Source: Patescibacteria group bacterium (GTDB taxonomy: Bacteria; Patescibacteriota; Kazan-3B-28). From it: DNA of 64,000 bases. Shown here piece after piece: positions 6,365 to 57,640 of the stretch. A program made the position numbers and the translations under genes. The stretch spans positions 32,559-96,558 of the forward strand of contig JBAZNQ010000001.1 in assembly GCA_041649135.1 (NCBI GenBank), read 5' to 3'. The notes beneath the pieces were generated by a model. That model ran no database searches. It was not told the DNA's origin and worked only from the letters and a program-made list of their open reading frames with translations. The number at the start of each line of letters is the position of its first letter. Position 1 is the stretch's first letter.

Positions 6365-6437
6365 TCGCAGATCCTTCCGTCGGCACGTCAACCATAGCTT
6401 TAGCGACGGTGGAAGCTTTAGCGTAGGAGGACTACCC
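6365..6437 (+). ncRNA. Conserved ~70-nt structured element, copy 1 of 3 (GATCCTYCC...TAGCTTTAGCG...GGAGGACTACC)
   Basis: Homologous to 32957-33025 and 42426-42494. The inner stem is CCGTCG/CGACGG here versus CCTTCG/CGAAG in the other copies (compensatory change). Confidence 0.4.
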
Positions 6438-13752: not shown

Positions 13753-13826
13753 GGCCAGATGGCCGAGCGGTTAGGCAGGGGTCTGCAAAACCCCGTACAG
13801 GAGTTCGACTCTCCTTCTGGCCTCCA
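13753..13826 (+). tRNA. tRNA-Cys (GCA)
   Basis: Acceptor ggccaga/tctggcc; anticodon loop ctgcaaa; T-arm aggagttcgactctcct. Confidence 0.8.
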
Positions 13827-14122
13827 GTCTTCGCTACCTTAACAGGTAGCTACGCCTGGCTGACGCCATTCTATTCTTAATGTGAGTGGCTAAGTCTGGT
13901 TGGAACTAATATAAAAACAAAAGCGAAGACTGTCCTGTGCAATCCTGCATAGCTCACAGAGCGACGCATGGGCGTAGTCCTGCATAGCTGTTAAGCGACG
14001 CACGGACGAAGCATGGACTTCCTCTAATTATTTCGCTGTAATATCCAATACCCAATCAGAAAACAAAAAATCAAAAATCTTTTTAATCGAACATTGGACA
14101 TTAACTACGAAGTAGTTTTCAT

Positions 14123-14262: not shown

Positions 14263-14390
14263 CCGTCATTCCCGCGAAAGCGGGAATCCAGAAAAGAAAA
14301 TAAACAAAAAACTTTTTTCTGTTTTTGTCTGGATTCCCGATCCCTCCAGAGACGGGCAAGCGGGTCGGGAATGACGAAGGAACAGTTTGG
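14263..14390. repeat. MITE-like element with perfect 10-bp TIR GTCATTCCCG/CGGGAATGAC and nested inverted repeats
   Basis: gtcattcccgcgaaagcgggaatccag...ctggattccc...cgggaatgac. Confidence 0.65.
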
Positions 14391-15329: not shown

Positions 15330-15640
15330 AGAATAAATTCTAAATTCGAAATCCTAAATCCTAAACAAATCTTAAATCTTAAATTCTAATGCTTCAAACG
15401 TTTTCTCTGTCATTCCCGCCCTCCTCTTTGTCATTCCCGCGTAGGCGGGAATCCAGCCAAGAACAAAAACATTTTTTCTTTTTTCTGTCTGGATTCCGGA
15501 TCAAGTCCGGAATGACGAATTGTTTATTTTAGTAATTGGTATTTCGTGCTTCGTGCTTGTTTCGTATTTCGTATTTCGTATTTATCTCCCTAGATACTAG
15601 ATACTGAATTGTGTTTCGTGTTTCGGATTTACTTTCAAGA
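15330..15640. repeat. Left arm of a ~310-bp inverted repeat flanking the DUF218 gene
   Basis: Near-identical reverse complement of 16300-16650. Contains a MITE-like GTCATTCC element and tandem (ATTTCGT)n and TAGATAC motifs. Confidence 0.7.
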
Positions 15641-15641
15641 A

Positions 15642-16250
15642 ATGACAAAATTCTTTATTTGGCTAATTTTTTTGGTTGGGTTGCTGGGTGGATTGATCAT
15701 CGGGGTGGGTTTTTATTTATCGCCACAAGGTGTGTTAAAAACTTCTGATGCGATCGTGGTAATTAGCGGAGGAGAGACTGATTTGCGAGTGAAAGAAGGT
15801 GTTAGATTGTATCAGGCCGACTGGGCGCCTCTCATGATCATGTCCGGTGCCGCTCGGGATGAAGGCGAATCAAATGCCGAAGCCATGAAACGACTGGCCA
15901 TCAGTTATGGGGTGCCATCAGACAAGATCCTAGTTGAAAAAGAAGCTCGTGACACCTTCGACAATGCGAAATTTACCCACGATTTACTGGAAGAACACCA
16001 GATTAGATCTATTATTCTGGTGACCTCTCCTTACCATCAGCGTCGGGCCTATCTAACTTTCCGCTACTATCTTGGTCCCGATGTAACAATCATCAACCAC
16101 TCGGCGGCTGACTCGGCTTGGCGAAAAAATGGTTGGTGGAATAACGCTTGGGCCAGAAGCATCACCTTCAGCGAGCTCCAAAAGCTGACTTATTTAGCAG
16201 TTTTCTTTAAGGGAGAGACAAAAACCAGTATACTGGACGGGACAAATTAG
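15642..16250 (+). CDS. DUF218 / YdcF-ElyC family protein with N-terminal TM helix
   Basis: Motifs VVISGGE, SPYHQRRAYLTFRYYLG. The first ATG in the track (15609) lies inside the inverted-repeat arm, so 15642 is preferred. Confidence 0.6.
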   Translation: MTKFFIWLIFLVGLLGGLIIGVGFYLSPQGVLKTSDAIVVISGGETDLRVKEGVRLYQADWAPLMIMSGAARDEGESNAEAMKRLAISYGVPSDKILVEKEARDTFDNAKFTHDLLEEHQIRSIILVTSPYHQRRAYLTFRYYLGPDVTIINHSAADSAWRKNGWWNNAWARSITFSELQKLTYLAVFFKGETKTSILDGTN

Positions 16251-16299: not shown

Positions 16300-16650
16300 A
16301 AAAATCCGAAGCACGAAATCCGAAATCCGAAACACAATTCAGTATCTAGTATCTAGGGAGGTAAATTCGAAGCACGAAATTCGAAATCCGAAACAAGCAC
16401 GAAATCCAAAATCCGAAATCCGAAACAAATCCGAAGCACGAAATACCAATGATTAAAATAAACAATTCGTCATTCCGGACTTGATCCGGAATCCAGACAG
16501 AAAAAAGAAAAAATGTTTTTGTTCTTGGCTGGATTCCCGCCTACGCGGGAATGACAAAGAAGAGGGTGGGAATGACAGAGAAAACGTTTGAAGCATTAGA
16601 ATTTGGAATTTGTTTATAATTTAGATATTAGAGTTTCGAATTTTATAAAA
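16300..16650. repeat. Right arm of the ~310-bp inverted repeat flanking the DUF218 gene
   Basis: Reverse complement of 15330-15640, with small indels in the (AAATCCGAA)n tracts. Confidence 0.7.
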
Positions 16651-29831: not shown

Positions 29832-29886
29832 AGGCCCAGACACATAGCTTTTGACAGCTGTTGTTATCTTGGGCCTTTTTCTTTTC
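29832..29886 (+). terminator. Rho-independent terminator after fusA (aggcccaga...tcttgggcctttttcttttcg)
   Basis: Long stem plus T-run. Confidence 0.6.
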
Positions 29887-30218
29887 GTGTAGGCATAGTT
29901 CTTGTTTAGCCATGCCTACGGCTGGTGCCGGGTACGCCGTCTTTATGGTACGACCATACCCAGAGTACAGAGAAGATGAGGAGGAAGACCCCCCTGCCAA
30001 CCAATTCTGTGAACACTGCCACTCGCACCTCCAAGTCGATTGATACGTTCACTGTAGCAAAAATATCAAAATTGTCAACCCCAGAGCTACTTACTACTAA
30101 CTTAACCCCAAACAAGCTGGTGCCCATAAAAAGCTAATTGGGCCATGAAATAACTCAAATATCAAGCTCCCCGCCATCCGGCGGGGAGCTTACAAAACCG
30201 CCACCAGAGCCGAAAATC

Positions 30219-30247
30219 TTGACATAGCCCTCGATAACTGGTAGGTT
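30219..30247 (+). promoter_or_regulatory. Candidate sigma70 promoter (TTGACA-17 nt-TAGGTT) driving the fusA-tuf islet genes
   Basis: Perfect -35 with 17-nt spacing; weak -10. Confidence 0.35.
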
Positions 30248-30306
30248 TAGTTTAGCTCATTAGGCAGACCTTGCTATTAAGCGGGCTGACCACAAAGGAG
30301 AAAAAA

Positions 30307-30396
30307 ATGGGCAACACAATCAAAGTGCACATTCCCAATAATGACGAGGCGTACGTCCTCAGCAAACTCGGCCGAACATTCTCTACGAGTTGCTAG
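30307..30396 (+). CDS. 29-aa ORF (MGNTIKVHIPNNDEAYVLSKLGRTFSTSC) with a canonical Shine-Dalgarno, ending in a TAG that is in frame with the next ORF
   Basis: SD aaaggag lies 7 nt upstream. The GC-rich codon usage differs from the host genes. Confidence 0.35.
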   Translation: MGNTIKVHIPNNDEAYVLSKLGRTFSTSC

Positions 30397-30840
30397 ATGG
30401 ACGGCAGCCGCTATATGCTGGCGAGCGCCGGTGTGGTGGAGGCTGTTATATCGGCGTTAAAGGCGATAGGCGTCGAGATACTGTATGTCACCGAACTTGT
30501 AAAGGTGCCTGAGTCGCTTGTCACCCGCCTACCCGCAGGATCTCTCCACCTGGCAGGCGATCGGGTTCATCTCTCCCCATCGATGAAAGCCGGGGAATAC
30601 ATAGCAAAAGCCAAGGATCTTGATGCTCTCAGGGAGGGCCTTGCCGCTGCCGGGATCCGCTCCATTACGGAGCACCACTCGGCTGACAAGATCACTGATC
30701 TCCTCATCACGGACGACCATTCTGATGGCAGCGACTCCACTAACGATGTGGACGACACCGGTACTGATGGGGGAGGGGGCGACAACACCTCATGGTCAGA
30801 TAACGACGACGACACCGGTACGGACCACACACCGGCCTAG
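30397..30840 (+). CDS. 147-aa protein of unknown function: ~100-aa N-terminal domain plus a poly-acidic D/T/G-rich disordered tail (DDHSDGSDSTNDVDDTGTDGGGGDNTSWSDNDDDTGTD)
   Basis: ~58% GC versus ~42% for flanking genes. The ATG is immediately after the upstream TAG, in the same frame. A terminator follows. Confidence 0.5.
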   Translation: MDGSRYMLASAGVVEAVISALKAIGVEILYVTELVKVPESLVTRLPAGSLHLAGDRVHLSPSMKAGEYIAKAKDLDALREGLAAAGIRSITEHHSADKITDLLITDDHSDGSDSTNDVDDTGTDGGGGDNTSWSDNDDDTGTDHTPA

Positions 30841-30875
30841 TCTCGTTTCGAGACTCAAAACCTAGTACCTACCCA

Positions 30876-30903
30876 GGCCGCGGAACTCTCCGCGGCCTTT
30901 CTC
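30876..30903 (+). terminator. Rho-independent terminator (ggccgcggaactctccgcggcctttctc)
   Basis: 8-bp GC stem plus T-run. Confidence 0.6.
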
Positions 30904-30925
30904 ATATGGAGAAGCCCCTTATTGT

Positions 30926-30993
30926 GTCATTCTGGGGAGCCCCACAGGGCGACGCCAGAATCTTATATACGATTCTGGACAAGCCAGAATGAC
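30926..30993. repeat. MITE-like GTCATTCTGG...CCAGAATGAC element
   Basis: Inverted termini. Related to the copy at 11-66. Confidence 0.55.
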
Positions 30994-31194
30994 GGAGCAA
31001 CGGTTGTTGACACCTCGCTCAAGATGACCAAAATATGAGGGACCACCTTCCCCCAGATTGGTTAGATTGGATTAAATTGGATAAATTGGTTAGATTTTCT
31101 CAAAAAACCCTTGCTTTATCCTCCGAATTTAGGTATTTTCTAAAAGTATCACTTTTTACACCTATACTAATCTGTAAAGTTTTTAGAGGGACTT

Positions 31195-32445: not shown

Positions 32446-32823
32446 ATGGCAAAAGCTCTCTCCCAATCAGATCCCAAAAAGAAACCGGAAAACGTCAAAC
32501 ATTCCGAAATCAAATCCGATAAGCAACGGATTCGGATTCGCTTAAAGGCGTATGATCACCGGATTTTAGATCGGTCGGCACATCAAATTATTGAAACTGC
32601 CGAGCGGACTGGTGCCGTTGTGTTGGGACCTATTCCTCTGCCAACCGATAAAAAAATTTACACTGTCTTGAAATCCACTTTTGTGCATAAAGATTCGCGA
32701 GATCAGTTTGAAATGCGGATCCATCGCCGGCTGATTGAAATTATTGATCCAACTGCCAAAACCATTGACGCCCTCACCAATTTGAGTCTGCCTGCCGGTG
32801 TCAGCATCGAAGTAAAAATGTAA
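32446..32823 (+). CDS. rpsJ: 30S ribosomal protein S10
   Basis: [14 protein letters not shown] motif. Confidence 0.95.
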
Positions 32824-32956
32824 GGTTTAGAGAAAAGAGACGAGAGTATAGAGAAAAATCTCTACGCTTTCATCTCTACTCTCTAACAGCAACAATTACT
32901 TCTGCGTCCCGCCATTGAATGGGACCAGAAGACAGATTTATATGAACCCCTATCCC

Positions 32957-33025
32957 TCGCAGATCCTCCGACTCGGTCCTTCGTAGCTTTAGCGAAGTAG
33001 GAAGCCTTGGCGTAGGAGGACTACC
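32957..33025 (+). ncRNA. Conserved ~70-nt structured element, copy 2 of 3, in the rpsJ-rplC spacer
   Basis: tcgcagatcctccgactcggtccttcgtagctttagcgaagtaggaagccttggcgtaggaggactacc, followed by a (CCTCTCT)n leader and the rplC ATG. Confidence 0.4.
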
Positions 33026-33070
33026 TGAACTTATCCCTCTCCTCTCTCCTCTCTCCTCTCTCCTCTATCT

Positions 33071-34633: not shown

Positions 34634-34700
34634 ATTAATTTAATAACCAAATATCTTCCCTAATTATTAACTGTTCACTCTTAACTTTTCACTAATTATC

Positions 34701-35549: not shown

Positions 35550-35658
35550 TAAATTAAGTTAATAATTAATAATTAACGGTGAATAATTAGGGAATAAAAT
35601 ATATCAATCGTCGCTTGCGACACCAAAACTATTCACTTTTAACTTTTCACTATCTCTT

Positions 35659-37302: not shown

Positions 37303-37364
37303 ATTTCCCACTACTTATCATTTTTCACTTTTAACTCTTCACTCTTAACTATTCACTATTCACT

Positions 37365-40261: not shown

Positions 40262-40387
40262 ATCGTAAAGTTAATCATTAATAGTGAATAGTTAAGGAAA
40301 ATAATTTAACCCCCCCCAATCTCTATTCTCTAATCTCTCTTCTCTCTTCTCTCTTCTCTACTCTCTAATCTCTACTCTCTAACTCCC

Positions 40388-41914: not shown

Positions 41915-42361
41915 ATGGATCAACTACACGACATTACTGGTATTGCCAAACATCCCGATCGCAAACGGGTTGGACGCGGTTATTCGGCTGGCGGCGGTTC
42001 TACTGCCGGTCGCGGTAACAAAGGCCAAAAAGCCAGAACCGGTGGTAATGTGCCAGCCTACTTCGAAGGTGGCCAAACTCCACTCATTCGCCGGTTGGCA
42101 AAGCGAAAAGGTTTCCGGTCGCACCGCAAATTTTCAGTTGTTCGTATCAATCTGAAAGATTTGGTCAAATACACCGACGATTACAAGCTTAATATCCAAC
42201 ATTTGATCGAAACTAGTCTGATCAATCCCGATACCAAGGTTAAAATTTTAGGTGAAGGCGAACTGACTGGAAGTTTCCAAGTGCAGGCTCATTTCATTTC
42301 CGCTCAAGCTCGCGCTAAAATTGAAGCACAGGGCGGCAAGGTTGAAATAGTTAATAGTTAA
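41915..42361 (+). CDS. rplO: 50S ribosomal protein L15
   Basis: 148 aa. Confidence 0.95.
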   Translation: MDQLHDITGIAKHPDRKRVGRGYSAGGGSTAGRGNKGQKARTGGNVPAYFEGGQTPLIRRLAKRKGFRSHRKFSVVRINLKDLVKYTDDYKLNIQHLIETSLINPDTKVKILGEGELTGSFQVQAHFISAQARAKIEAQGGKVEIVNS

Positions 42362-42425
42362 CAGTTAATAGTGAATAATTAGGGAACAATATATAAATCG
42401 TCGCTAGCGACACCTGAACTTTTCA

Positions 42426-42494
42426 TCGCAGATCCTCCGACTCTGTCCTTCGTAGCTTTAGCGAAGTAGGAAGCCTTGGCGTAGGAGGACTACC
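42426..42494 (+). ncRNA. Conserved ~70-nt structured element, copy 3 of 3, in the rplO-secY spacer
   Basis: Differs from copy 2 by about one substitution. Confidence 0.4.
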
Positions 42495-42519: not shown

Positions 42520-43800
42520 ATGAACATTCTTGATTCAATCAGACAGATTTTCAAACACCGCGATTTACGTCTGCGGATCATTTTTACTCTGGTTGCCTTA
42601 CTGTTTGTGCGACTGATCACTCATACTCCCATGCCGGGTGTAGATTTGGATGCCTTAGCTCAAGTTTTCTCACAAAATCAATTCTTGGGCTTAATTGACC
42701 TTTTTTCCGGCGGCTCCCTTAATCGTTTCTCTATTGCCATGATGGGTGTCGCGCCCTACATCAACGCTTCCATTATTATGCAGTTGATGGGTATGGCATT
42801 ACCAAGCGTAGAAGCCCTGCAGAAAGAAGGGGATTATGGCCGGAGAAAGATCAGCCAATATACTCGCTTACTGACCGTACCCTTGGCCATCATCCAAGGT
42901 TACGGCATGATTGCTCTCCTCCAAAGTTCCGACGTGAATATTTTGGGCAATATTGGCATATTGCAGCTGGTTGGCATCTTGCTAATCGTTACCACCGGTA
43001 CTTTGCTCTTAATGTGGTTGGGTGAATTGATTTCCGAACACGGTATTGGCAATGGCATCTCGTTAATTATCTTCATTGGCATTCTGGCTAGTTTGCCCCA
43101 AAGCTTATCCAGTACGATTGCCCTGTTTGACGTTAGTCGCTTGATGGAAATTCTCATCTTTGCCATTTTGGCAGTCGCTACTATCTTCTTAGTAGTTTGG
43201 ATTACGGAAGGCCAACGCAACATCCCGATCGCTTACGCTGGTCGGGGTGGTGGCAATCGTCTTTATGCCGGCCAAAGCAATCATCTGCCACTGCGAGTGA
43301 ACCAAGCCGGTGTTATCCCGATTATTTTTGCTATTTCATTACTATTGTTCCCCGGTCTGATCGCATCTTTCTTTGCTTCCGCTCGAACTGCATGGTTGGC
43401 TTCCGCCGCTCAATGGGTGCAAACTGCTTTTCAAGATCAATGGGTCTACGGCATTTTATACTTCGTCTTTGTAGTCTTCTTTACCTACTTTTACACTTGG
43501 GTCATCTTCAAACCGGATCAGGTCGCTGAAAACATTCAAAAATCTGGTGGTTTCATCCCCGGTATTCGTCCCGGTCGTCAAACAGTTGAATTCTTGAATT
43601 TTGTTACCAACCGAATTACTTTAGCCGGTGCTATTTTCCTCGGCCTAATTGCCGTATTGCCAAATATTGTGCAGGGGATCACCAATATTCAAACTCTGAC
43701 TTTGGGTGGTACTGGTCTATTGATCGTCGTTTCGGTCGCATTGGAATTAATGCGTCAACTACGAGCCCAATTAATTATGAAGCGGTACGATGAGATCTAA
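42520..43800 (+). CDS. secY: Preprotein translocase subunit SecY
   Basis: 426 aa; 10 TM. Confidence 0.97.
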   Translation: MNILDSIRQIFKHRDLRLRIIFTLVALLFVRLITHTPMPGVDLDALAQVFSQNQFLGLIDLFSGGSLNRFSIAMMGVAPYINASIIMQLMGMALPSVEALQKEGDYGRRKISQYTRLLTVPLAIIQGYGMIALLQSSDVNILGNIGILQLVGILLIVTTGTLLLMWLGELISEHGIGNGISLIIFIGILASLPQSLSSTIALFDVSRLMEILIFAILAVATIFLVVWITEGQRNIPIAYAGRGGGNRLYAGQSNHLPLRVNQAGVIPIIFAISLLLFPGLIASFFASARTAWLASAAQWVQTAFQDQWVYGILYFVFVVFFTYFYTWVIFKPDQVAENIQKSGGFIPGIRPGRQTVEFLNFVTNRITLAGAIFLGLIAVLPNIVQGITNIQTLTLGGTGLLIVVSVALELMRQLRAQLIMKRYDEI

Positions 43801-47619: not shown

Positions 47620-48555
47620 ATGATTGAAGACATCAACATCCCAAGTATCAAGCTCGAAGAAAAAGCGATTAATCGCGCCGTCTTCGTAGTCGAGCCGTGC
47701 TTTCCGGGTTACGGCACAACTTTAGGTAATTCCCTTCGTCGAGTTTTGTTAAGCTCTTTGCCGGGTGCGGCTATCATTGCTGTCAAAATCGCTGGTGTTG
47801 ATCACGAATTTTCGCCGGTCATCGGTGTCAAAGAAGACGCTGTTGGTATTATCTTGAATCTCAAAAAGCTTCGGTTTATTATGCACGAAGCCGGTCCAGT
47901 CGCTTTGAAATACAAGGGTGGTAAGACTGGTGAAATTACTGGTGCTGATTTAGAAATTCCTAGTACGGTTACCTTGGTCAATCCCGAACAATACATTGCC
48001 ACAGTCTCCGAAAAAACCGCTCTGGAAATGGAAATTCAGGTCGCCAAAGGTCGCGGATATATGCCCAGTGAAGCCATGGATGAAAAGAATTTCTCCATCG
48101 GTACGATTGCTGTTGATGCCGCTTTCTCTCCAGTCGTCAAAGTCATGTTTAATGTCGAGCCAACTCGTGTTGGCGAAATGATCAACTATGACAAGCTGAC
48201 AATTAATGTTTTAACCGATGGGACGATTACTCCGGAAGAGGCCGTTCGCCAAAGTGCTCAAATTTTGGCTAAGCAATTAACTGTCTTCGGTGTTGATTTA
48301 GAGAATCTGCCGATCGGTGAAACACCAACCGAAGCCGAAGCCGTCGATGTAAAAGACTTCAGTATTGATGAGGTTAATCTATCAGTTCGGACCACTAACG
48401 CATTAGTTAACAATGGTATCAAAAAAGTTAGCGAAATTCTGGAAGTTGGTGCCGAAAAACTCGGGACGATGAAAGGTCTAGGTGCAAAAGCGTTGGACGA
48501 AATTACTGACAAATTAGCCGAGCTTGGTATTAAGTTTAATAATCCCGATTCTTAA
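47620..48555 (+). CDS. rpoA: DNA-directed RNA polymerase subunit alpha
   Basis: 311 aa. Confidence 0.97.
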   Translation: MIEDINIPSIKLEEKAINRAVFVVEPCFPGYGTTLGNSLRRVLLSSLPGAAIIAVKIAGVDHEFSPVIGVKEDAVGIILNLKKLRFIMHEAGPVALKYKGGKTGEITGADLEIPSTVTLVNPEQYIATVSEKTALEMEIQVAKGRGYMPSEAMDEKNFSIGTIAVDAAFSPVVKVMFNVEPTRVGEMINYDKLTINVLTDGTITPEEAVRQSAQILAKQLTVFGVDLENLPIGETPTEAEAVDVKDFSIDEVNLSVRTTNALVNNGIKKVSEILEVGAEKLGTMKGLGAKALDEITDKLAELGIKFNNPDS

Positions 48556-48658
48556 TTCCCCCTCATTCCTCTCTATTCTCTATTCTCCTCTCTACTCTCT
48601 AACCTCTTCTCTCTACTCTTAACTTTTCACTTTTAACTATTAACTATTAACTTTTCTT

Positions 48659-51331: not shown

Positions 51332-51697
51332 ATGTTCAAGTTTGAAAAACTAAATGTGTGGCAGTCTGCTCGAATTTTCATTCAGACAATATATAAACTT
51401 AGTCAGCAATTCCCATCGAGTGAATTATACGGGTTAACATCACAAATTCGTCGTGCAGCCGTATCAGTAGCACTGAATATCGCCGAGGGTTGTAATTCAG
51501 GTTCTAACAAAGAGTTTAATCGGTTTCTCTATCTGTCTTCTCGTTCCCTTGACGAAGTTATTAGCTGCCTGTACCTTGCAATGGACCTAGAATACATTCA
51601 AAAGACAGATTTTGATGTCATCTATCAAGCTGCCGAAAATCTCGGCAAACAAATATCTGGTTTAAAAAGGTTCCTAGCCCAATCCGTCAGTCTATAA
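51332..51697 (+). CDS. Four-helix-bundle protein (TIGR02436; 23S rRNA intervening-sequence protein family)
   Basis: MFKFEKLNVWQSARIFIQTIYKLSQQFPSSELYGLTSQIRRAAVSVALNIAEG. Confidence 0.7.
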   Translation: MFKFEKLNVWQSARIFIQTIYKLSQQFPSSELYGLTSQIRRAAVSVALNIAEGCNSGSNKEFNRFLYLSSRSLDEVISCLYLAMDLEYIQKTDFDVIYQAAENLGKQISGLKRFLAQSVSL

Positions 51698-51729: not shown

Positions 51730-51912
51730 ATGCCTGCTAAAGCCAAAATCACTAAAAAAGTCAAACGCCCCATCATCAAACTGATGTGTACTGAATGTAA
51801 ACAGGGTGTTTACTCTACTCGCAAGAATCCGACCAACACGCCGGATAGATTGGTCAGAAAGAAATTCTGCCGCATCTGCAAAAAAACCACCGAGCACAAA
51901 GAGACGAAATAG
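51730..51912 (+). CDS. rpmG: 50S ribosomal protein L33 (Cys4 zinc form)
   Basis: 60 aa; CTECKQ...CRICKK. Confidence 0.9.
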
Positions 51913-51944
51913 TATCTAGCATTCAGTATCTAGCATCTAGCTCC

Positions 51945-52160
51945 GCGTCATTCCTGCGGAGGCAGGAATCCATTTTCTTTTTGTCATCCCGAGCGTAGTC
52001 GAGGGATCTAGCGTAGTGCTATCAAAAATCATCTTAAAACCCCGCTCCCTCTTCTTGTCATCCCCGCGCAGGCGGGGATCCACCCCGTTTTGTCATCCTG
52101 AACTCGTTTCAGGATCTAAAAATCACCTATCAAAACCCCGCTCCAGTAGCGGGGTTTATG
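51945..52160. repeat. Cluster of MITE-like GTCATYC hairpin elements plus a terminator-like hairpin (aaaaccccgctccagtagcggggttta)
   Basis: Repeats visible by eye. Confidence 0.55.
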
Positions 52161-52182: not shown

Positions 52183-52256
52183 AGGGGCGTCGTTCAGTGG
52201 TAGGACGTGGGTCTCCAAAACCCAAGACGAGTGTCCGATTCACTCCGCCCCTGCCA
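52183..52256 (+). tRNA. tRNA-Trp (CCA). The T-loop reads UCCGAUU (C at position 55), which is non-canonical.
   Basis: Acceptor aggggcg/cgcccct; anticodon stem tgggt/accca, loop ctccaaa. Confidence 0.75.
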
Positions 52257-52299
52257 GCAAAATTATTCGCTTTCACAGTGGATTTTATTTTGATCCAAA

Positions 52300-52896
52300 G
52301 TGGAAGTTAGAACCGTAAGGCGATGTTATACTAAACTTGTGTATGATCAAGTTAAACAGTTTGTAGAAGAATCTTTTAGTGCTGGGGTTAATGAGAAGAG
52401 TATGAAGCACTTTGAGCAAACAGTTGCTTGGCTTAAACGTTTGAAACCCGATGCTGATGAGCCAATGTTAATTGCTGCCTATTCGCACGATATTGCCAGA
52501 GCATTGCGACAAGTAGATTCAAAAACCTTGTTTAAAAATAAAGAACTTAACGATCCCGAGGTGTTGAAAGAGCATCAAGAGCAGGGAGCCCAAATCATGG
52601 GAGAGTTTCTGAGGGATAATGATTACGACGAAGTGTCAGTCAAACGGGTAGAGAACATGATACGCCACCACGAAGAGGGTGGTGATGAGGAATCTAACCT
52701 TCTGATGGATGCTGACAGTCTGAGTTATTTGGAGGTTAATGCCAAAAAACATATTGGACTAATTGATGTTTGGGGAAAGGGAAAAGTTGAACGGAAAATT
52801 GATTGGATGTATAGCAGGATTTCTTCTGCTCGGGCTAAAGAATTTGCCCAGCCATATTACCAAGAAGTGAAGGACTTACTGAACAAGCATTTCTAA
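52300..52896 (+). CDS. HD-domain metal-dependent phosphohydrolase (cassette 1)
   Basis: H...HD motif (KHFEQT...LIAAYSHDIARAL). The stop TAA lies inside the att-like repeat core TTCTAAC. Confidence 0.6.
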   Translation: MEVRTVRRCYTKLVYDQVKQFVEESFSAGVNEKSMKHFEQTVAWLKRLKPDADEPMLIAAYSHDIARALRQVDSKTLFKNKELNDPEVLKEHQEQGAQIMGEFLRDNDYDEVSVKRVENMIRHHEEGGDEESNLLMDADSLSYLEVNAKKHIGLIDVWGKGKVERKIDWMYSRISSARAKEFAQPYYQEVKDLLNKHF

Positions 52897-52969
52897 CTTC
52901 CTCCACCACGGTCTGCCAGTTATTTTATTCGCTCCCAGAGCGGATTATTGTCGGTAGTATAATACAAAC

Positions 52970-53533
52970 ATGGAAAAGCTAACTTTTATTACTGGCAATC
53001 CAGCCAAGGCAAAATATCTCGGTGACTACTTTCATTTTCCAGTTGATCACCTCAAATTAGATTTGCCAGAGATTCAGTCTACGGATTTACAAACAATCGT
53101 TGAAGACAAGGTCAAACGAGCTTTTGCCATTACAAGTACGCCCGTAATAGTTGAGGATGTCTCTCTGATATTTCACGGGATGAAAGCACTCCCTGGTCCA
53201 CTCATTAAATGGTTTCTTGAAACTTTGGGGAATAACGGACTATGTAAATTGGTGGATGGTTTAAATAACCGCAAAGCAACAGCCAAAGTAATGTTCGCAA
53301 TTTGTGATGAGTCAGGTGTTCATACCTTTGCTGGTTCAATGGAAGGCTCTATCTCCGAGTTGCCAAGAGGGGAGATGGGTTTTGGCTGGGATCCGATTTT
53401 TATACCCGACGGTTATGACAAAACTTGGGCGGAAATGACCGATGACGAAAAACACGCTGTCTCCATGCGGAAACAAGCGTTGGAGCAAATGTCAGAGTTC
53501 TTGTCCAAACAAAACGTAATGGTTAATGGATAA
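52970..53533 (+). CDS. Non-canonical purine NTP pyrophosphatase (Ham1/RdgB/ITPase family) (cassette 2)
   Basis: MEKLTFITGNPAKAKYL...GFGWDPIF. Confidence 0.75.
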   Translation: MEKLTFITGNPAKAKYLGDYFHFPVDHLKLDLPEIQSTDLQTIVEDKVKRAFAITSTPVIVEDVSLIFHGMKALPGPLIKWFLETLGNNGLCKLVDGLNNRKATAKVMFAICDESGVHTFAGSMEGSISELPRGEMGFGWDPIFIPDGYDKTWAEMTDDEKHAVSMRKQALEQMSEFLSKQNVMVNG

Positions 53534-54020
53534 TCAGCATCCTCAAAAACAATTTATGGAAGCCGCTATAGCAGAGGCAACCGAAGCTCGCGATAACGGT
53601 GATTATGCCATCGGAGCGATTATTGTTCATGATGGTCAAGTTATTTCCAGAGCCACCAACCGATCTAAGGTCGACCAAGACGCAACCCAGCACGCCGAGA
53701 TAGTCGCAATTCGTCAGGCGTCGCAAATGCTCGGGTCTCGCTATTTGGAGGAGTGCATTTTGTACACTACCCACGAACCCTGCCCTATGTGTGCTGCCGC
53801 TGTTGTTTGGGCAAAAATGAGAGGTGTTGTATCGGGGGCTCGCATGGAAGACATGACGGACTATCGCATCAAGAATGGCAACGATGAATGGAAATGGCGG
53901 ACTATCAGCATTCCTGCCCGAGAGGTGTTAGCAAAAGGGGAACCAAAGGTTATGCTAATAGAGGAGTTTATGCGGGATGAGTGTAGGCAGCTGTTTCACG
54001 GTGCCGAATCAAATTCCTAA
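53526..54020 (+). CDS. CDA-fold zinc deaminase, TadA-like (tRNA adenosine or nucleoside deaminase) (cassette 2; overlaps the Ham1 gene by 8 nt)
   Basis: HAEIVAIRQA...THEPCPMCAAAVVWAKMRGVVSGA. Confidence 0.7.
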   Translation: MDNQHPQKQFMEAAIAEATEARDNGDYAIGAIIVHDGQVISRATNRSKVDQDATQHAEIVAIRQASQMLGSRYLEECILYTTHEPCPMCAAAVVWAKMRGVVSGARMEDMTDYRIKNGNDEWKWRTISIPAREVLAKGEPKVMLIEEFMRDECRQLFHGAESNS

Positions 54021-54074
54021 CTTCCTCCGCCACGGTTTCTGCCAACCGCTTATACTCTCTACAGATAAAAGATT

Positions 54075-54626
54075 ATGAAAAACGACATTAGACCCATATA
54101 TAGTGAGTTGCGAGGATATCTTAGTGTCGCTCCACTCGCAGATGGATACTTGTTTGGCAGCGAAGCTAATAGATTTAGTCATCAACTAAACGTCACCATC
54201 GATGAATTAAACGAGGCTACCAAGAGCAACTATGACAAATTTAAAGTGGTACTTGAACATGACAGCGGTAGCCCAGCCCTTATGATTAGTGATTACCGCA
54301 ATAGGTTGAGCGGTCTGATCTATAAGATCCAAGGAGAATATTTTGCAGATGAACAGCAGTCGGGAAGTGGGCCCAGTACTATTATTAATGCCAACCAAAG
54401 TCAGGCTCAAAGCCAACAGCAAAGCCTTATAGTCGACTTGGTTTTCTTTGTTGCTGAGAAAAAAGCGGAGTATCAGGATGGAACACCTGAGAAGACATTC
54501 CTAGATAAGTTTGGGGATGCGCTCAAAACGGCCAAGGGAGTTCAGGATATAATTCAGCTTATCTTCACTATAGCGAGTCAGGTTGGCCTTCAGTTGGAAC
54601 AGCTTAAGAACTTATTTGGGGGATAA
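54075..54626 (+). CDS. Hypothetical protein (cassette 3)
   Basis: 183-aa ORF with no recognisable motif. Confidence 0.4.
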   Translation: MKNDIRPIYSELRGYLSVAPLADGYLFGSEANRFSHQLNVTIDELNEATKSNYDKFKVVLEHDSGSPALMISDYRNRLSGLIYKIQGEYFADEQQSGSGPSTIINANQSQAQSQQQSLIVDLVFFVAEKKAEYQDGTPEKTFLDKFGDALKTAKGVQDIIQLIFTIASQVGLQLEQLKNLFGG

Positions 54627-54632
54627 TACGTA

Positions 54633-54974
54633 ATGGAAATTACCTACGAAGATTTTGAAAAAGTAGATATCCGACTTGGTCGGGTTATTGATGCTCAAGA
54701 TTATCCAGAAGCCAAAAAGCCTGCTTTCAAGTTGAAGATAGACTTTGGCCCAGAGATTGGCATCAAGAGTTCCAGCGTTCAAGCTGTCGGTGCTCACACT
54801 AAAGAAGAACTTAATGGCATGCTGGTTTGTTGTGTAGTTAATTTCCCACCTAAGCGAATTGGCGATTTCACATCCGAAGTACTGACTCTTGGTTTTAAGA
54901 ACGCTGACGGTATCGGCTGGGTACTGATTACTCCAGCCAAGCAGTCGGTTAATATCGGAGATAAACTTCAATAA
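54633..54974 (+). CDS. tRNA-binding domain protein (CsaA/Trbp111/EMAP-like OB fold) (cassette 3)
   Basis: DIRLGRVIDAQDYPEAKKPAFKLKIDFGPEIG... Confidence 0.65.
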   Translation: MEITYEDFEKVDIRLGRVIDAQDYPEAKKPAFKLKIDFGPEIGIKSSSVQAVGAHTKEELNGMLVCCVVNFPPKRIGDFTSEVLTLGFKNADGIGWVLITPAKQSVNIGDKLQ

Positions 54975-54975
54975 T

Positions 54976-55710
54976 ATGAATAAAATTGCATTAGTAACGG
55001 GCTCGTCTAAAGGTATTGGTATGGCAATTGCCATAGAACTATCATCCAGGGGATTTGATGTAATCATCAATAATAGTCACGAAAATGCTGAAGGCCAAGC
55101 CGTCGTTGATGAAATTAACCAACACGGTGGCAGAGCTGTCTATATGCCAGCCGATGTCTCTAATATTAATGATGTTATTAAACTCAAAACCGAAATCGAA
55201 GAACAGTTTGGACACCTAGACGTTCTTATCAATAATGCTGGAATCGTCAGAAAGGAATATCCAGGCCAAGCTAACTGGGAGGATTGGGATAGGGTGTTTG
55301 CTGTAAATGTGAGAGGTATGGCTCAATGTATCTATGAACTATCTCCAGTCATGCCCGAGGGTTCAGCGATAGTGAACATTGTATCTGTGTGGGGGCTTGA
55401 GCTCCCTGCATATGACGCCAACGCTTACGCTGCTTCTAAGGCAGCCGTAGTTAGTCTCACCAAGACCCTCGCTCTCCAGTTGGCTCCTAAGATTAGAGTC
55501 AATGCAGTAGCTCCTAGCGTCGTGGCAATTGAACAACCCCACGAAACTAATCCAGATACCGTTAAATGGGTGCAGGACAATATGCCCCTTGGACGCAAAG
55601 CCACACCTCAAGAGATTGCTAAATTAGTGGCTTTTTTGGTGTCAGATGATGCTAGCTTTATTATCGGTGATTGTATAAAAATTGACGGTGGATTAACTTT
55701 GAAGATCTAG
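54976..55710 (+). CDS. Short-chain dehydrogenase/reductase (FabG-like SDR) (cassette 3)
   Basis: TGSSKGIG Rossmann motif, NNAG, catalytic YAASK. Confidence 0.8.
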   Translation: MNKIALVTGSSKGIGMAIAIELSSRGFDVIINNSHENAEGQAVVDEINQHGGRAVYMPADVSNINDVIKLKTEIEEQFGHLDVLINNAGIVRKEYPGQANWEDWDRVFAVNVRGMAQCIYELSPVMPEGSAIVNIVSVWGLELPAYDANAYAASKAAVVSLTKTLALQLAPKIRVNAVAPSVVAIEQPHETNPDTVKWVQDNMPLGRKATPQEIAKLVAFLVSDDASFIIGDCIKIDGGLTLKI

Positions 55711-55875
55711 CTAACACACTGAGGCAATTGTTGCAGAATGACAGTTCTAACTTCCTCCACCACGGTCTGCCAGATAAATTATCCGCTATGACAGCGAATA
55801 TTTTTGTGTGGGCAACGCGTAGTTAGAACTTTGCCCAAGAAAAAAGCTCATTATTTACAGTCGCGAGCGAACGAC

Positions 55876-56841
55876 TTACCACCGCTTATAGAGAGCCCCC
55901 GTCTTTTGCAACAGCCAGAATGCTAACATTCCAGTCGCAAGAAAGAACGCTACTCCACCGAAGGTGGTGTTGAGCAATGGATGGGGATGAAACCACCATG
56001 TCATTACTGCGAGCAACAACCAGACATCGAACATGTGCTTTGATGTGCGGTGTTCATAGTCCATGTTCGAGTTCCAGAATCGAGCAGCTCCATGCACTAC
56101 GCCTCTAGTCATGCCCCATCCAAAAAACAAGAACAGTGGTAACAACATGTATGTCTCGTGCCATCTAGCCGAAAGCCACATGCCTATCACTGTTGGCCAC
56201 GGCATCAAGCAGGCAATCCAACATACGGCTCGAAACGCCTGAGGCTCGCCAACCAGTAGTGGCAGAGTACGCTTATTACCGTTTCTATCGGCTTCCATGT
56301 CTTCGATGTCCTTTAGCGTTTCGCGTATGACCAATGCCATTACAACGCTCAGGAATACACCTAACACTAGGGGCTTCGAAGAGCCTGCGACAGGGAACAG
56401 CATGAGTACTGGGCTGGAGGCTGTCACGGCTACCAGAACATTGTTGACTGGATACCAAGGTCGGATCCAGTTGTACAACCATATCCCTACACCGATTTGC
56501 GACAGCAAGAGGGATGACTGCCAAATGGCTAAACCTTGATTGTCTGAACGATGTAGAAACAACCAGCTGACAGCAATCACCACCAGAACACACCACTGTA
56601 TGACGGCAAGTTGGTATAGTTTGGCATGTTCGAGGTCGGTCATTTCTCGGCTTTTACCCCGATCCTCATTGCGGTCAAATAAATCGTTCCAGAGCATAGT
56701 CGCTCCACAAATCCATGCCTGAATAATGGCCAAGACCACAATTCCGACACCAAACTTGTAAAGCTGGACAGACATTCCGACCAACAGCCCTGCCGCTAGT
56801 AAGCTGACAGGCACTCTGTATCGTAAAAGTACATTCCGCAT
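55876..56841 (-). CDS. UbiA-family prenyltransferase, membrane (cassette 4, reverse orientation)
   Basis: NDLFDRNED (NDxxDxxxD), multiple TM segments. A strong SD aaggaggtg lies upstream on the minus strand. Confidence 0.65.
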   Translation of the reverse strand: MRNVLLRYRVPVSLLAAGLLVGMSVQLYKFGVGIVVLAIIQAWICGATMLWNDLFDRNEDRGKSREMTDLEHAKLYQLAVIQWCVLVVIAVSWLFLHRSDNQGLAIWQSSLLLSQIGVGIWLYNWIRPWYPVNNVLVAVTASSPVLMLFPVAGSSKPLVLGVFLSVVMALVIRETLKDIEDMEADRNGNKRTLPLLVGEPQAFRAVCWIACLMPWPTVIGMWLSARWHETYMLLPLFLFFGWGMTRGVVHGAARFWNSNMDYEHRTSKHMFDVWLLLAVMTWWFHPHPLLNTTFGGVAFFLATGMLAFWLLQKTGALYKRW

Positions 56842-56922
56842 TATTCACCTCCTTTACTGTATTTGCGGATGTTTCATTATATGGGCCGACGAGTAGATTA
56901 GTCCACAGGGATCGGTCAAGGG

Positions 56923-56951
56923 TTGACGCAACCCAGTTATCGTCCAATAAT
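56923..56951 (+). promoter_or_regulatory. Candidate sigma70 promoter TTGACG-17 nt-AATAAT for the 56985 gene
   Basis: Spacing and hexamers visible; SD aaaggagg before the ATG. Confidence 0.35.
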
Positions 56952-56984
56952 ACAGCCATTCAGTGACAACCAAAGGAGGTCAAA

Positions 56985-57377: not shown

Positions 57378-57640
57378 GATGCAATTGTATTCGTCGCTTA
57401 CGGCCCCCATCTGGGGGCCTATCATTTTAATTTAATGGTAAACTTACAGGTATAGGACTGGTGGATTGGGTTAAAGCCGTTCTAACTTCCTCTACCAAGG
57501 TCTGCCAATAAAATTAACCGCTTTCATAACGGATTTTATTTTCAGCCACAGTAGAAGTTAGAACTTGAAGGTGTTACAATATCCCCATCAAACTAGAGGG
57601 GGCTAGCGCTCCTTCAAACCTCAACAAAGGAGGGTGGGCT

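What the first reader, a model, noticed from the sequence alone, without database searches (positions are those of the whole stretch)
32957..33025. Three copies of a ~70-nt structured RNA-like element with compensatory stem changes, two of them inside ribosomal operons
Near-identical elements lie in the rpsJ-rplC spacer (32957-33025) and the rplO-secY spacer (42426-42494); a diverged copy is at 6365-6437. Consensus: TCGCAGATCCTYCCG-[stem]-TAGCTTTAGCG-[stem']-…GGCGTAGGAGGACTACC. In copies 2 and 3 the inner stem is CCTTCG/CGAAG. In copy 1 it is CCGTCG/CGACGG, so both arms changed together. That is direct covariation evidence for a base-paired RNA. The outer GATCCTCC pairs with GGAGGAtC, sequestering an SD-like GGAGGA that sits ~45 nt from the nearest start codon, too far to act as an SD. 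Copies 2 and 3 are each followed by a G-less pyrimidine leader and then the next ribosomal gene. This suggests an intra-operon regulatory RNA such as an r-protein autoregulatory mimic, a processing site or an attenuator.
Basis: seen in the sequence. Interest (0 to 1): 0.68.

Follow-up and report, generated by a model that had tools for sequence, protein, structure and literature searches.

The report
Dispersed hairpin repeat, not ribosomal regulator
The three ~70-nt elements are real, but they are recently inserted copies of a small hairpin repeat with a conserved 14-nt cap that also occurs in unrelated bacteria and viral contigs, not a regulator specific to ribosomal-protein operons.

Summary
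The three copies exist at the stated coordinates. Copies 2 and 3 differ by 1 nt; copy 1 is diverged. The window comes from a Patescibacteria (CPR) genome related to 'Kazan'.

Six relatives (L3 70-88% identical) lack the element in the rpsJ-rplC spacer. Two keep the uninterrupted ancestral site, and the others carry different inserts at the same point, next to a dead copy of the L3 start codon. Where the rplO-secY junction was recovered, it is 0-3 nt in two relatives and holds a different repeat in a third. So the element is a recent insertion, not a conserved regulator.

Each copy is a two-unit member of a hairpin class: a variable 6-bp stem capped by G-W-A-GC-[YUUR]-GC-G-W-A. In 84 loop-anchored viral sites the stem pairs in 73% of cells against 52% in shuffles (0/500). 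56 of 84 sites have complementary flanks, against 1 of 47 for a control 15-mer. The cap apex is T..A or C..G in all 88 hairpin sites.

Class members occur in genomes assigned to several bacterial phyla, are mostly intergenic, and lie on either strand. This genome holds two further, non-ribosomal copies. Rfam and literature string searches found nothing.

What the hairpin does remains inferred.

The parts
32957..33025 (+). Copy 2, a two-unit hairpin element in the rpsJ-rplC spacer. Outer arms TCCTCC 32964-32969 / GGAGGA 33015-33020. Inner arms TCCTTC 32977-32982 / GTAGGA 32997-33002. Cap GTAGCTTTAGCGAA 32983-32996. Second cap-like unit AGCCTTGGCGTA 33003-33014 on the 3' strand.
   Evidence: class model R1 scores 43.0 bits, E 9e-10 over 32973-33006
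42426..42494 (+). Copy 3 in the rplO-secY spacer, with the same anatomy shifted by +9469. Inner arms 42446-42451 / 42466-42471, cap 42452-42465, outer arms 42433-42438 / 42484-42489.
   Evidence: R1 44.7 bits, E 3e-10 over 42442-42475
6365..6436 (+). Copy 1, diverged, 3' of and antisense to rplT. Outer arms TCCTTCC 6372-6378 / GGAGGA 6426-6431. Inner arms TCAACC 6388-6393 / GGTGGA 6408-6413. Cap ATAGCTTTAGCGAC 6394-6407. Second unit AGCTTTAGCGTA 6414-6425.
   Evidence: R1 18.5 bits, E 0.008 over 6384-6417
13820..13863 (-). Fourth, single-unit hairpin of the same class, overlapping the last bases of tRNA-Cys (13753-13826, + strand) and lying on the opposite strand. Arms CCAGGC/GACTGG. The cap GTAGC...GCGAA has its apex extended to UACCU-GUUA-AGGUA.
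   Evidence: R1 24.0 bits, E 2e-4; sequence; tRNA position
32943..32947 (+). TGAAC, the left copy of a 5-nt direct repeat around copy 2. The right copy is at 33026-33030. It is part of the dead ancestral L3 start ATGAA (32942-32946).
   Evidence: relatives L044 and L042 read ...TTTATATGAAAGG uninterrupted at this point
33026..33030 (+). TGAAC, the right copy of the direct repeat flanking copy 2. It is compatible with a 5-bp target-site duplication. The corresponding pentamers are TGAAC/AAAAC for copy 3 and ACAAC/CAAAC for copy 1.
32942..32986 (+). Relic upstream reading frame. The ancestral L3 ATG now opens a 14-codon frame (MNPYPSQILRLGPS) that stops at the TAG inside the hairpin cap.
   Evidence: read directly from the sequence and compared with relatives; translation not tested
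33031..33070 (+). G-less pyrimidine heptamer tract between copy 2 and the live rplC start. Its length differs between strains (28 nt longer in the JGI variant L002).
32899..32931 (+). Context, not part of the element: the hairpin that really is conserved in this spacer (CTTCTGCGTCCCGC...GGGACCAGAAG). It is present in all 7 species compared.
   Evidence: 12 pairs, 5 of them with compensatory double changes

Best explanation
Each copy is a two-unit member of a widespread, apparently undescribed family of small hairpin repeats.

Anatomy. The basic unit is a 6-bp stem of almost any sequence, usually pyrimidine-rich on the 5' side and purine-rich on the 3' side. It closes a conserved 14-nt cap, 5'-G-W-A-G-C-[Y-U-U-R]-G-C-G-W-A-3'. 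That reads as a 3x3 internal loop (GUA opposite GAA, or flipped) followed by two G-C pairs and a YUUR apex.

Origin (shown). In this CPR genome the elements are recent insertions into intergenic DNA. Copy 2 sits next to the first five bases of the ancestral L3 start (ATGAA), which is duplicated so that the gene keeps a start codon. TGAAC also recurs upstream of copy 3 (42411-42415) and at the secY start (42521-42525).

Spread (inferred). The repeats probably propagate at the DNA level. A trans-acting enzyme that was not identified would read the folded cap, probably on single-stranded DNA. Selection then keeps only insertions in spacers.

Effect (inferred). Because copies 2 and 3 are in sense orientation inside r-protein operons, they should be co-transcribed and fold into a stem-loop of about -20 kcal/mol between cistrons. 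By analogy with REP (repetitive extragenic palindrome) elements, the expected effect is a passive barrier to 3'-5' decay or a processing point. It is not a sensor of any ribosomal protein.
For: Insertion and non-conservation.
- The rpsJ-rplC spacers of six relatives lack the element. L044 and L042 keep the uninterrupted ancestral site. L040, L041, L043 and L045 carry different inserts at the same place.
- The rplO-secY spacer is 0-3 nt in L040 and L042.
- Class model R1 finds nothing in 87 kb covering the six relatives' loci and 20.8 kb of this genome's own contig (L013, overlapping the window's 3' end); best E 1.2.
- Copy 2 is flanked by TGAAC on both sides.

Class membership. R1 scores 44.7, 43.0 and 18.5 bits for the three copies.

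Reality of the hairpin class.
- 56 of 84 sites anchored only on the loop 15-mer have at least 5 of 6 complementary flanking bases, with 35 different 5' arms.
- Only 1 of 47 control 15-mer sites does.
- 73.4% of cells pair against 51.7% in shuffles (0/500). The covariation score is 0.543 against 0.217, and slid registers reach at most 48%.
- The cap apex is T..A (47) or C..G (41) in hairpin sites, never C..A or T..G.

Dispersal.
- Eight exact matches fall in genomes labelled Hydrogenedentota, Verrucomicrobia, Pirellulales, Akkermansia, Niastella, Kiritimatiellia, Flavobacteriales and Nanoarchaeia.
- There are about 90 sites in viral contigs. 55% are intergenic against 8.5% for the control, and both orientations occur (14 sense, 19 antisense).
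- The same genome has two more copies away from r-protein genes.
Against: - No mobilising enzyme was found. Only about 84 kb of the genome could be read.
- The 5-nt flanking repeat is perfect for one copy only.
- There are no terminal inverted repeats beyond the stem itself.
- All three two-unit copies lie next to translation genes. With n=3 in a window dominated by such genes this cannot be evaluated, but it leaves room for a preference for highly expressed operons.
- G.T mismatches outnumber A.C in the arms (18 vs 7). The CUUG-type apex is a classic stable RNA tetraloop (my own knowledge, not tested here). Both hint at selection on the RNA.
- Conservation of a 14-nt cap across phyla is unusual for REP or MITE families, which are normally lineage-specific.
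- Many source genomes are MAGs (metagenome-assembled genomes), so some phylum labels may reflect mis-binning.
Confidence: 0.6

Rival explanations
1. Ribosomal-protein autoregulatory RNA, attenuator or SD-sequestering switch inside the S10/spc operons.
For: Copies 2 and 3 sit in sense orientation at two operon junctions. The 3' arm is GGAGGA and the 5' arm TCCTCC.
Against: - No Rfam match.
- Absent from the orthologous rpsJ-rplC spacer in six relatives, and from the rplO-secY junction in the three where it was recovered.
- Copy 1 is antisense to rplT.
- Other class copies are unrelated to r-protein genes.
- Only 3 of 35 genes use an SD-like motif, and GGAGGA lies 30-50 nt from the ATG.
- No U-tract follows the hairpin.
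- Inner stems in the class are often not SD-like at all.
Confidence: 0.04
2. A functional RNA module. The conserved GUA/GAA internal loop with its GC-YUUR-GC apex would be a binding site for a conserved RNA-binding protein or nuclease. Possible roles are mRNA 3'-end protection, a processing site that cuts polycistronic mRNA into units, or a re-initiation device in which the relic upstream frame stops at the UAG in the cap.
For: - Strict conservation of an internal-loop sequence over a freely covarying stem, and of a tetraloop-like apex with Y-R covariation.
- A variable apex length with the GUAGC/GCGAA core kept.
- G.T exceeds A.C among stem mismatches on the cap strand (18 vs 7).
- Bacterial genome copies lie mostly downstream of a co-oriented gene.
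- In all three window copies an upstream frame ends at the cap TAG, and copy 1 is 3 nt longer, so the frame is kept.
Against: - In viral contigs the orientation relative to flanking ORFs is 14 sense to 19 antisense. The antisense RNA would carry a pyrimidine-rich loop, not the same motif.
- Copy 1 and the tRNA-Cys copy are antisense to local transcription.
- No wobble is tolerated at the cap apex (0 of 88 hairpin sites).
- No partner protein is known.
- Single-sequence stability is unremarkable.
Confidence: 0.2
3. A single-stranded-DNA signal. The folded hairpin on the lagging-strand template or on a rolling-circle intermediate would be read by an HUH-type nuclease or transposase (IS91-, Rep- or RAYT-like) or by a priming enzyme. 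The frequent 5' CTTG tag would be the cleavage or target tetranucleotide.
For: - CTTG precedes the stem in 16 of 56 class hairpins, CCTG in 4 more, and the base before the stem is G in 37 of 56.
- The window copies are flanked by GAAC-like pentamers, which read GTTC on the other strand.
- The IS91 family uses CTTG/GTTC targets next to subterminal palindromes (PMC13181058).
- REP hairpins are cut by RAYT as single-stranded DNA (PMC3733652, PMC3479197).
- The cap contains TAGCG[A/T], as does the CS-6 loop motif of ssoA origins (PMC4598088).
- Orientation is independent of transcription.
- Pairing at the cap apex is strictly Watson-Crick.
- An inverted doublet is present in L029.
Against: - No HUH gene was seen near any copy. 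The recurrent neighbours in viral loci are portal and other structural genes.
- The IS91 family makes no target duplication, whereas copy 2 has one.
- The resemblances are 4-6 nt long.
- No match in 72,556 plasmids.
Confidence: 0.15

Closest known systems
REP / REPIN elements (repetitive extragenic palindromes; the GTAG- and CGTC-tagged superfamilies of Di Nocera et al. 2013, PMC3733652)
   Same: Both are short (about 26-70 nt) imperfect palindromes in many intergenic copies. Both occur singly, in arrays or as inverted doublets. Stems show complementary substitutions. Some families are found in several phyla, and REPs are co-transcribed with operons, where they are thought to stabilise upstream mRNA.
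   Different: The conserved part here is a 14-nt cap inside the hairpin, not an unpaired GTAG or CGTC tag at one end. GTAG occurs, but within the loop. The stem sequence is almost free. No RAYT gene was seen. The cap is the same in genomes assigned to different phyla and in viral contigs.
MITEs (miniature inverted-repeat transposable elements)
   Same: Both are non-coding, multi-copy and near-identical within a genome (copies 2 and 3 differ by 1 nt). Empty orthologous sites exist in relatives, and a 5-nt direct repeat flanks copy 2.
   Different: There are no terminal inverted repeats beyond the 6-7 bp outer stem. The duplication is imperfect for two of three copies. Elements with the same cap occur across phyla, which is not typical of MITEs.
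Ribosomal-protein leader and autoregulatory RNAs (for example the S10/L4 leader and the S8 site in the spc operon)
   Same: The location is similar: inside or next to r-protein operons, in a hairpin-forming spacer.
   Different: There is no model match, no conservation at the orthologous site, and no link to r-protein genes in other genomes. The structure that is conserved in this spacer is a different hairpin, at 32899-32931.
IS91-family ends and ssoA single-strand origins of rolling-circle plasmids
   Same: Both combine a hairpin with a short conserved sequence read on single-stranded DNA. IS91 has a CTTG/GTTC tetranucleotide beside a subterminal palindrome, and ssoA has TAGCGT (CS-6) in a terminal loop.
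   Different: The resemblance covers only 4-6 nt. No transposase or Rep gene is nearby. RSB, the second conserved sequence of ssoA origins, was not looked for. ssoA is about 160 nt and described in Firmicutes plasmids.

Membership tests
Rfam r-protein leaders (and any other Rfam 15 family) | Match to the family covariance model | tested here: not met
   Whole window at gathering threshold: tRNAs only. Both spacers at E up to 10: only chance miRNA/snoRNA-like hits outside the element. Nine class loci at E up to 1: nothing.
r-protein autoregulatory RNA | Conserved at the orthologous operon position in related genomes | tested here: not met
   Six relatives (L3 70-88% identical) lack it in the rpsJ-rplC spacer. 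The rplO-secY spacer is 0-3 nt in two of them. The class model found no hit.
r-protein autoregulatory RNA | Mimics the rRNA binding site of the regulating protein | not testable with these tools
   No rRNA of this organism is in the window and there is no binding assay.
Intrinsic terminator / attenuator | G+C-rich hairpin immediately followed by a U-run | tested here: not met
   The terminator scan lists no site at the elements. The sequences after the hairpin are CTACCTGAAC, CTACCAAAAC and CTACCCAAAC.
REP / REPIN | Short imperfect palindrome in multiple intergenic copies | tested here: met
   Five hairpins in about 84 kb of this genome, all intergenic apart from a 7-nt overlap of one hairpin with the 3' end of tRNA-Cys.
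REP / REPIN | Unpaired GTAG or CGTC tag at one end of the palindrome | tested here: not met
   GTAG lies inside the cap. The commonest 5' flank is CTTG (16 of 56). Definition taken from PMC3733652.
REP / REPIN | A cognate RAYT transposase gene flanked by the repeats | not testable with these tools
   Only about 84 kb of a 420-kb contig could be read. No Pfam hit of that kind appears among the called genes.
MITE | Empty orthologous sites, showing insertion | tested here: met
   L044 and L042 read ...AAAGATTTATATGAAAGG uninterrupted where the window carries the insert.
MITE | Target-site duplication and terminal inverted repeats | tested here: inconclusive
   TGAAC/TGAAC is perfect for copy 2. 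Copy 3 has TGAAC/AAAAC and copy 1 ACAAC/CAAAC. The only inverted repeat is the 6-7 bp outer stem.
Cap-hairpin class defined here (model R1) | 6-bp stem closing G-W-A-GC-YUUR-GC-G-W-A, scored by a covariance model built only from viral-contig examples | tested here: met
   44.7 bits (copy 3), 43.0 bits (copy 2), 18.5 bits (copy 1), and 24.0 bits for a fourth hairpin at 13820-13863.
IS91-like / HUH-mobilised element | CTTG/GTTC tetranucleotide next to a subterminal palindrome, no target duplication, and an HUH transposase | tested here: inconclusive
   The tetranucleotide tag is frequent and GAAC-like flanks are present. However, copy 2 shows a duplication, and no HUH gene was seen among the recurrent neighbours.

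The most novel reading that the evidence does not exclude
The cap-hairpin (variable stem + 5'-GWAGC-YUUR-GCGWA-3') would be a previously undescribed, cross-phylum structured nucleic-acid module, possibly cross-domain. It would be shared by bacteria assigned to at least six phyla, by a contig binned as Nanoarchaeia, by uncultivated phages and by contigs binned as giant viruses. It would be read through its GUA/GAA internal loop by a conserved but unknown protein. That would make it a third 'superfamily' of prokaryotic palindromic repeats beside the GTAG- and CGTC-tagged REPs, with its own mobilisation or RNA-level function and a recurrent association with heptamer tandem repeats.
Probability: 0.35. 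Interest if true: 0.7.

Novelty: new variant of a known kind. Interest (0 to 1): 0.5.

Why it matters
For this window, the result removes a false lead: the element is not an r-protein regulator. It also points to the structure that is conserved in the spacer, the hairpin at 32899-32931.

More broadly, it defines a compact motif that is easy to search for. The motif has strong covariation, a wide taxonomic spread and no Rfam entry.

If a partner enzyme or binding protein exists, it would explain how tiny hairpins spread between distant microbes and their viruses. It would also explain why they settle at gene boundaries, including start codons of essential operons in reduced CPR genomes. The many 'hypothetical proteins' made of SSFAKATADK / SYGGQ / LKLRRT-like strings may partly be translations of this repeat. 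That last point is an inference from the six-frame translations.

Tried and rejected
- Rfam at gathering and at permissive thresholds found nothing relevant.
- Single-sequence folding of both strands and of whole spacers gave no significant stability, apart from a z of -2 for the whole rpsJ-rplC spacer. That signal comes from other hairpins.
- A metagenome scan with the window-type ends returned one chance match, L011.
- A protein search with the pseudo-peptide read from the reverse strand returned one weak hit and was useless.
- BLAST of the element and of a class consensus against plasmids found no match. Against cultured phages it gave only chance-level hits.
- Literature searches for sequence strings and pseudo-peptides found nothing relevant. 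Searches for REP-like repeats in CPR or the Planctomycetes-Verrucomicrobia-Chlamydiae group found only the general REP literature.
- A search for a recurrent partner gene around 75 class loci found only phage structural genes shared by one related phage group (portal, tail tube, RusA), and no transposase.
- Promoter reading: no sigma-70-like site lies within the elements.
- A link to the 23S-IVP (four-helix-bundle) or PD-(D/E)XK small ORFs was considered. One such ORF lies 470 nt from the hairpin in L005 and one in the window at 51332-51697, but there is no consistent association.
- The ssoA and IS91 resemblances are kept only as leads.

Full report
OBSERVATION

The three copies are real. They lie at 6365-6436, 32957-33025 and 42426-42494, all on the + strand. 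Their conserved blocks occur far more often than in shuffled sequence. The 16-mer GCGTAGGAGGACTACC occurs 3 times against 0.22 expected, and TAGCTTTAGCG with up to one mismatch 5 times against 0.74. Copies 2 and 3 differ at one base.

Pfam assigns the flanking genes:
- Copy 2 lies between S10 (32446-32823) and L3 (33071-33649).
- Copy 3 lies between L15 (41915-42361) and SecY (42520-43800).
- Copy 1 lies 3' of L20 (6503-6850), which is on the minus strand. It is therefore antisense to that operon, and a minus-strand hairpin plus T-run follows at about 6325-6349.

Single-sequence folds of either strand are no more stable than dinucleotide shuffles.

SOURCE ORGANISM

The window is part of a 420-kb metagenome contig (ENA ERZ27247363). 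Its L3 protein is named 'Patescibacteria group bacterium' by NCBI. The nearest named relatives are candidate division Kazan, at 54-57% identity. A strain variant from a JGI metagenome keeps the element, with two substitutions at its 5' edge. The pyrimidine heptamer tract downstream is 28 nt longer in that strain.

IS IT A KNOWN RNA?

No. Rfam 15 finds only tRNAs in the window. Permissive scans of both spacers give nothing at the element. No terminator-like or promoter-like site coincides with it.

IS IT CONSERVED WHERE A REGULATOR SHOULD BE?

No. I fetched the same operon region from six relatives whose L3 is 88, 81, 79, 77, 71 and 70% identical.

- All share a hairpin, CTTCTGCGTCCCGC...GGGACCAGAAG, followed by AAAGATTTAT and the L3 start ATGAAAGG.
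- L044 (81%) and L042 (70%) have exactly that, uninterrupted.
- In the window the sequence reads ...TTTATATGAA|C-CCCTATCCC-[element]-TGAACTTATCCC-(heptamers)-TCTATCT|ATGAAAGG. A block of about 123 nt therefore sits right after the first five bases of the old start codon region, and ATGAA is duplicated.
- L040 and L041 carry different hairpin inserts at the same point. L043 and L045 carry yet other sequences.
- The L15-SecY junction is 0-3 nt in L040 and L042. In L041 it holds a copy of L041's own repeat.
- A covariance model of the hairpin class finds nothing in 87 kb covering these six loci plus L013 from this genome's own contig; the best E is 1.2.

The element is thus a recent, lineage-specific insertion. 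TGAAC flanks copy 2 on both sides (32943-32947 and 33026-33030). The corresponding pentamers are TGAAC/AAAAC for copy 3 and ACAAC/CAAAC for copy 1.

WHAT THE ELEMENT BELONGS TO

An exact-pattern scan of one genome per species returned eight hits. They are labelled Hydrogenedentota, Verrucomicrobia, Pirellulales, Akkermansia, Niastella, Kiritimatiellia, Flavobacteriales and Nanoarchaeia. All show the same grammar: 5' units TCC[G/T]CC-GTCTTG and 3' units AGC[T/C]TT[A/G]GCG-[A/T]A-GG[C/A]GGA.

To remove the bias of that pattern, I anchored a scan of viral contigs on the loop alone, using GTAGCTTTAGCGAAG.

- Of 84 distinct sites, 56 have at least 5 of 6 complementary bases on the two flanks, with 35 different 5' arms. 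Examples are TCCGCC/GGCGGA, CCCTGC/GCAGGG, TATTCC/GGAATA and TTTGAC/GTCAAA.
- A composition-matched control 15-mer gave 47 sites, of which 1 has such flanks.
- Counted over all 84 sites, 73.4% of cells pair against 51.7% in shuffles (0 of 500 shuffles reach the observed value). The covariation score is 0.543 against 0.217. Sliding the 3' arm by 1-3 columns drops pairing to 36-48%.
They are never C..A or T..G; those combinations occur only at the 12 sites without a stem.

The unit is therefore a 6-bp stem, then GUA opposite GAA (or the flipped GAA/GUA), then G-C and C-G pairs, then a YUUR apex.

A model built only from viral examples scores the window as follows:
- copy 3: 44.7 bits
- copy 2: 43.0 bits
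- copy 1: 18.5 bits
- a fourth hairpin at 13820-13863 on the minus strand: 24 bits (E 2e-4)

The fourth hairpin overlaps the last bases of tRNA-Cys. It keeps GUAGC...GCGAA, but its apex is extended to a 5-bp stem. A fifth hairpin lies 3.9 kb upstream of the window, between a phosphoribulokinase-family (PRK) gene and a sugar-transferase gene (L015:5948-5984, 19.8 bits).

The window's 69-nt elements are two-unit versions: outer arms TCCTCC/GGAGGA, inner arms TCCTTC/GTAGGA, the cap, and a second cap-like unit AGCCTTGGCGTA on the 3' strand.

The stems it compares are not homologous on the 5' side. Under the class model, copy 1 differs from copies 2 and 3 in the inner stem by one true double change, one repaired mismatch and one lost pair. 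The idea that the element is base-paired is right, but the proof comes from the wider family.

The SD-sequestration idea has little footing. Only 3 of 35 genes in the window have an SD-like motif, and inner stems elsewhere are often not SD-like. G-less heptamer leaders precede about ten genes that lack the element.

CONTEXT OF THE CLASS

- In viral contigs, 55% of hairpin sites are intergenic by a crude ORF call, against 8.5% of control sites.
- Between co-directional ORFs the hairpin is sense in 14 cases and antisense in 19.
- Antisense copies often abut a stop codon.
- In the eight bacterial loci the neighbours are unrelated metabolic genes.
- Recurrent neighbours in viral loci are structural genes of one related phage group, and no transposase appears.
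- CTTG precedes the stem in 16 of 56 cases.
- A minority (11 of 93) have an upstream arm that could pair alternatively with the 5' arm.
- In several unrelated contigs the hairpin sits inside heptamer tandem repeats, as it does in the window.
- Among stem mismatches, G.T outnumbers A.C by 18 to 7. This is a weak hint of selection on the cap-strand transcript.

MECHANISM

Shown:
- The elements are insertions.
- They belong to a dispersed hairpin class under selection to pair.
- They are not tied to r-protein genes.

Inferred:
- They spread at the DNA level through an unidentified enzyme that reads the cap.
- Copies 2 and 3 are co-transcribed and act, if at all, as passive intercistronic stem-loops that protect against decay or mark a processing point, as proposed for REPs (PMC3733652).

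Rivals kept open:
- An RNA-level protein-binding module.
- A single-stranded-DNA signal for an HUH-type nuclease. The IS91 family uses CTTG/GTTC next to subterminal palindromes (PMC13181058). The ssoA loop motif CS-6 is TAGCGT (PMC4598088). Both are resemblances of 4-6 nt only.

COMPARISON AND NOVELTY

The closest known kind is the REP/REPIN and MITE world. Cross-phylum palindromic repeat superfamilies have precedent in the GTAG- and CGTC-tagged REPs (PMC3733652). This class differs in having its conserved sequence inside the hairpin rather than as an end tag. No Rfam family, plasmid, cultured phage or paper found by string search matches it.

I rate it a new variant of a known kind. The finding as originally framed is not supported. 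The by-product, a well-defined and widespread cap-hairpin, is of moderate interest.

CAVEATS

- Most taxon labels come from MAGs.
- ORF calls in the fetched loci are heuristic.
- The class was sampled with exact-pattern scans, so the true variability of the cap is under-estimated.
- Only about 84 kb of the source genome could be read.

Noticed in passing
window 32899-32931: This is the structure that really is conserved in the rpsJ-rplC spacer. The hairpin CTTCTG-CGTCCC-loop-GGGAC-CAGAAG lies 10 nt upstream of the ancestral L3 start and is present in all 7 species compared. It has 12 pairs, 5 of them with compensatory double changes. There is no Rfam match. It is a candidate internal regulatory or processing hairpin of the S10 operon in this CPR clade.
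   Followed up: partly
window 32828-32888: A long hairpin sits directly after the rpsJ stop codon. Five of the six relatives have a hairpin at the same place, but with entirely different sequence, some built from complementary short repeats. L042 lacks it. This was seen by eye and in the fold; the pairs were not counted.
   Followed up: partly
window, most spacers from 26.6 to 50.2 kb (e.g. 34656-34697, 35553-35658, 37310-37364, 40267-40387, 42345-42386, 48555-48658): Spacers are inflated by heptamer tandem repeats. Purine-rich units (AGTTAAT, AGTGAAT) follow stop codons, and complementary G-less units (TTCACTA, CTCTCTA, TTAACTT) precede start codons, so each spacer can fold on itself. Relatives have mostly 0-10 nt at the same junctions. 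The tract length varies between strains.
   Followed up: partly
window, 35 gene starts between 19116 and 51332: Only 3 of 35 genes have a GGAG/GAGG/AGGA motif 5-20 nt upstream of the start. Translation initiation here appears largely SD-independent.
   Followed up: partly
L041:9775-10000 and L041:18557-18710: A relative (L3 71% identical) carries its own, different hairpin repeat (CCCGTAGAGAAATTTAGAACGCCTTGGGCGCA...) in the same two spacers, rpsJ-rplC and rplO-secY. Each copy follows ATGAA[T/C] and has a TGAAC- or ATGAAT-like duplication. L040 has a related insert with inverted ends CCCGTTAGAAAA...TTTTCTAAACGGG. The start codons of rplC and secY look like insertion hot spots where the duplication regenerates the start.
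   Followed up: partly
window 5341-5378, 5930-5975, 14265-14306, 15441-15487, 16514-16555, 51942-52110: Other palindromic repeats of the type TGTC-ATTCCCGC-GAAA-GCGGGAAT-CCAG and GTCATCCCGAGCG...GGGATC. Their layout fits the CGTC/TGTC-tagged REP superfamily described in PMC3733652, here in a CPR genome. The stretch 5900-6330 next to copy 1 is a cluster of several repeat types.
   Followed up: no
window 29850-31120: A block of about 1.3 kb with visibly more G and C lies between fusA and tuf. It holds an ORF (30397-30840) without any Pfam match, plus palindromic repeats. Relatives have 210-400 nt (L042, L040) or other small ORFs (L041) at this junction. It is probably another insertion.
   Followed up: no
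window 51332-51697: A '23S rRNA intervening sequence protein' (four-helix-bundle, PF05635) ORF lies within the r-protein gene region, upstream of a small Cys-rich ORF at 51731-51913 that was not identified. It is flanked by 8-mer repeats TAGACNAA upstream and their complement downstream.
   Followed up: no
window 15342-15583 and 16402-16643: A 242-nt inverted repeat (89% complementary) brackets a DUF218 gene (15609-16250). The arms are themselves made of AATCCGA/AATCCTA heptamers.
   Followed up: no
window 52250-60000 (e.g. 57426-57619 and 58816-59009): A family of 60-190 nt direct repeats (CTGCCA..AAATTA..CGCT..; TTCTAACTTCCTCCACCA) recurs between genes, next to ORFs without Pfam matches (57641-58756, 58996-59862).
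   Followed up: no
L009:2320-2400, L022:180-260, L030:4090-4180, L168, L197, L005:2750-2810: In unrelated genomes and viral contigs the cap-hairpin is embedded in, or followed by, heptamer tandem repeats such as (CGGCTAT)n, (AATATTG)n, (GTATCGA)n, (GGTTGAT)n and (CGGCTAC)n. This is the same association as in the window.
   Followed up: partly
L010:2114-6028: On the contig binned as Nanoarchaeia, several class hairpins (2717, 2960, 5273, 5960) lie inside one 1304-aa reading frame that combines isoleucyl-tRNA-synthetase-type and histidine-phosphatase domains. They are antisense to it. They may be in-frame intragenic insertions, or the frame may be an artefactual fusion.
   Followed up: no
L066, L086, L090, L094, L112 (contigs labelled GVMAG) and L055: Contigs binned as giant-virus MAGs carry an A+T-rich version of the hairpin (TATTCC-cap-GGAATA). 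It is preceded by a conserved segment of about 25 nt, AAGCGA.T.GA.GTTTTCCGATTA. Binning was not verified.
   Followed up: no
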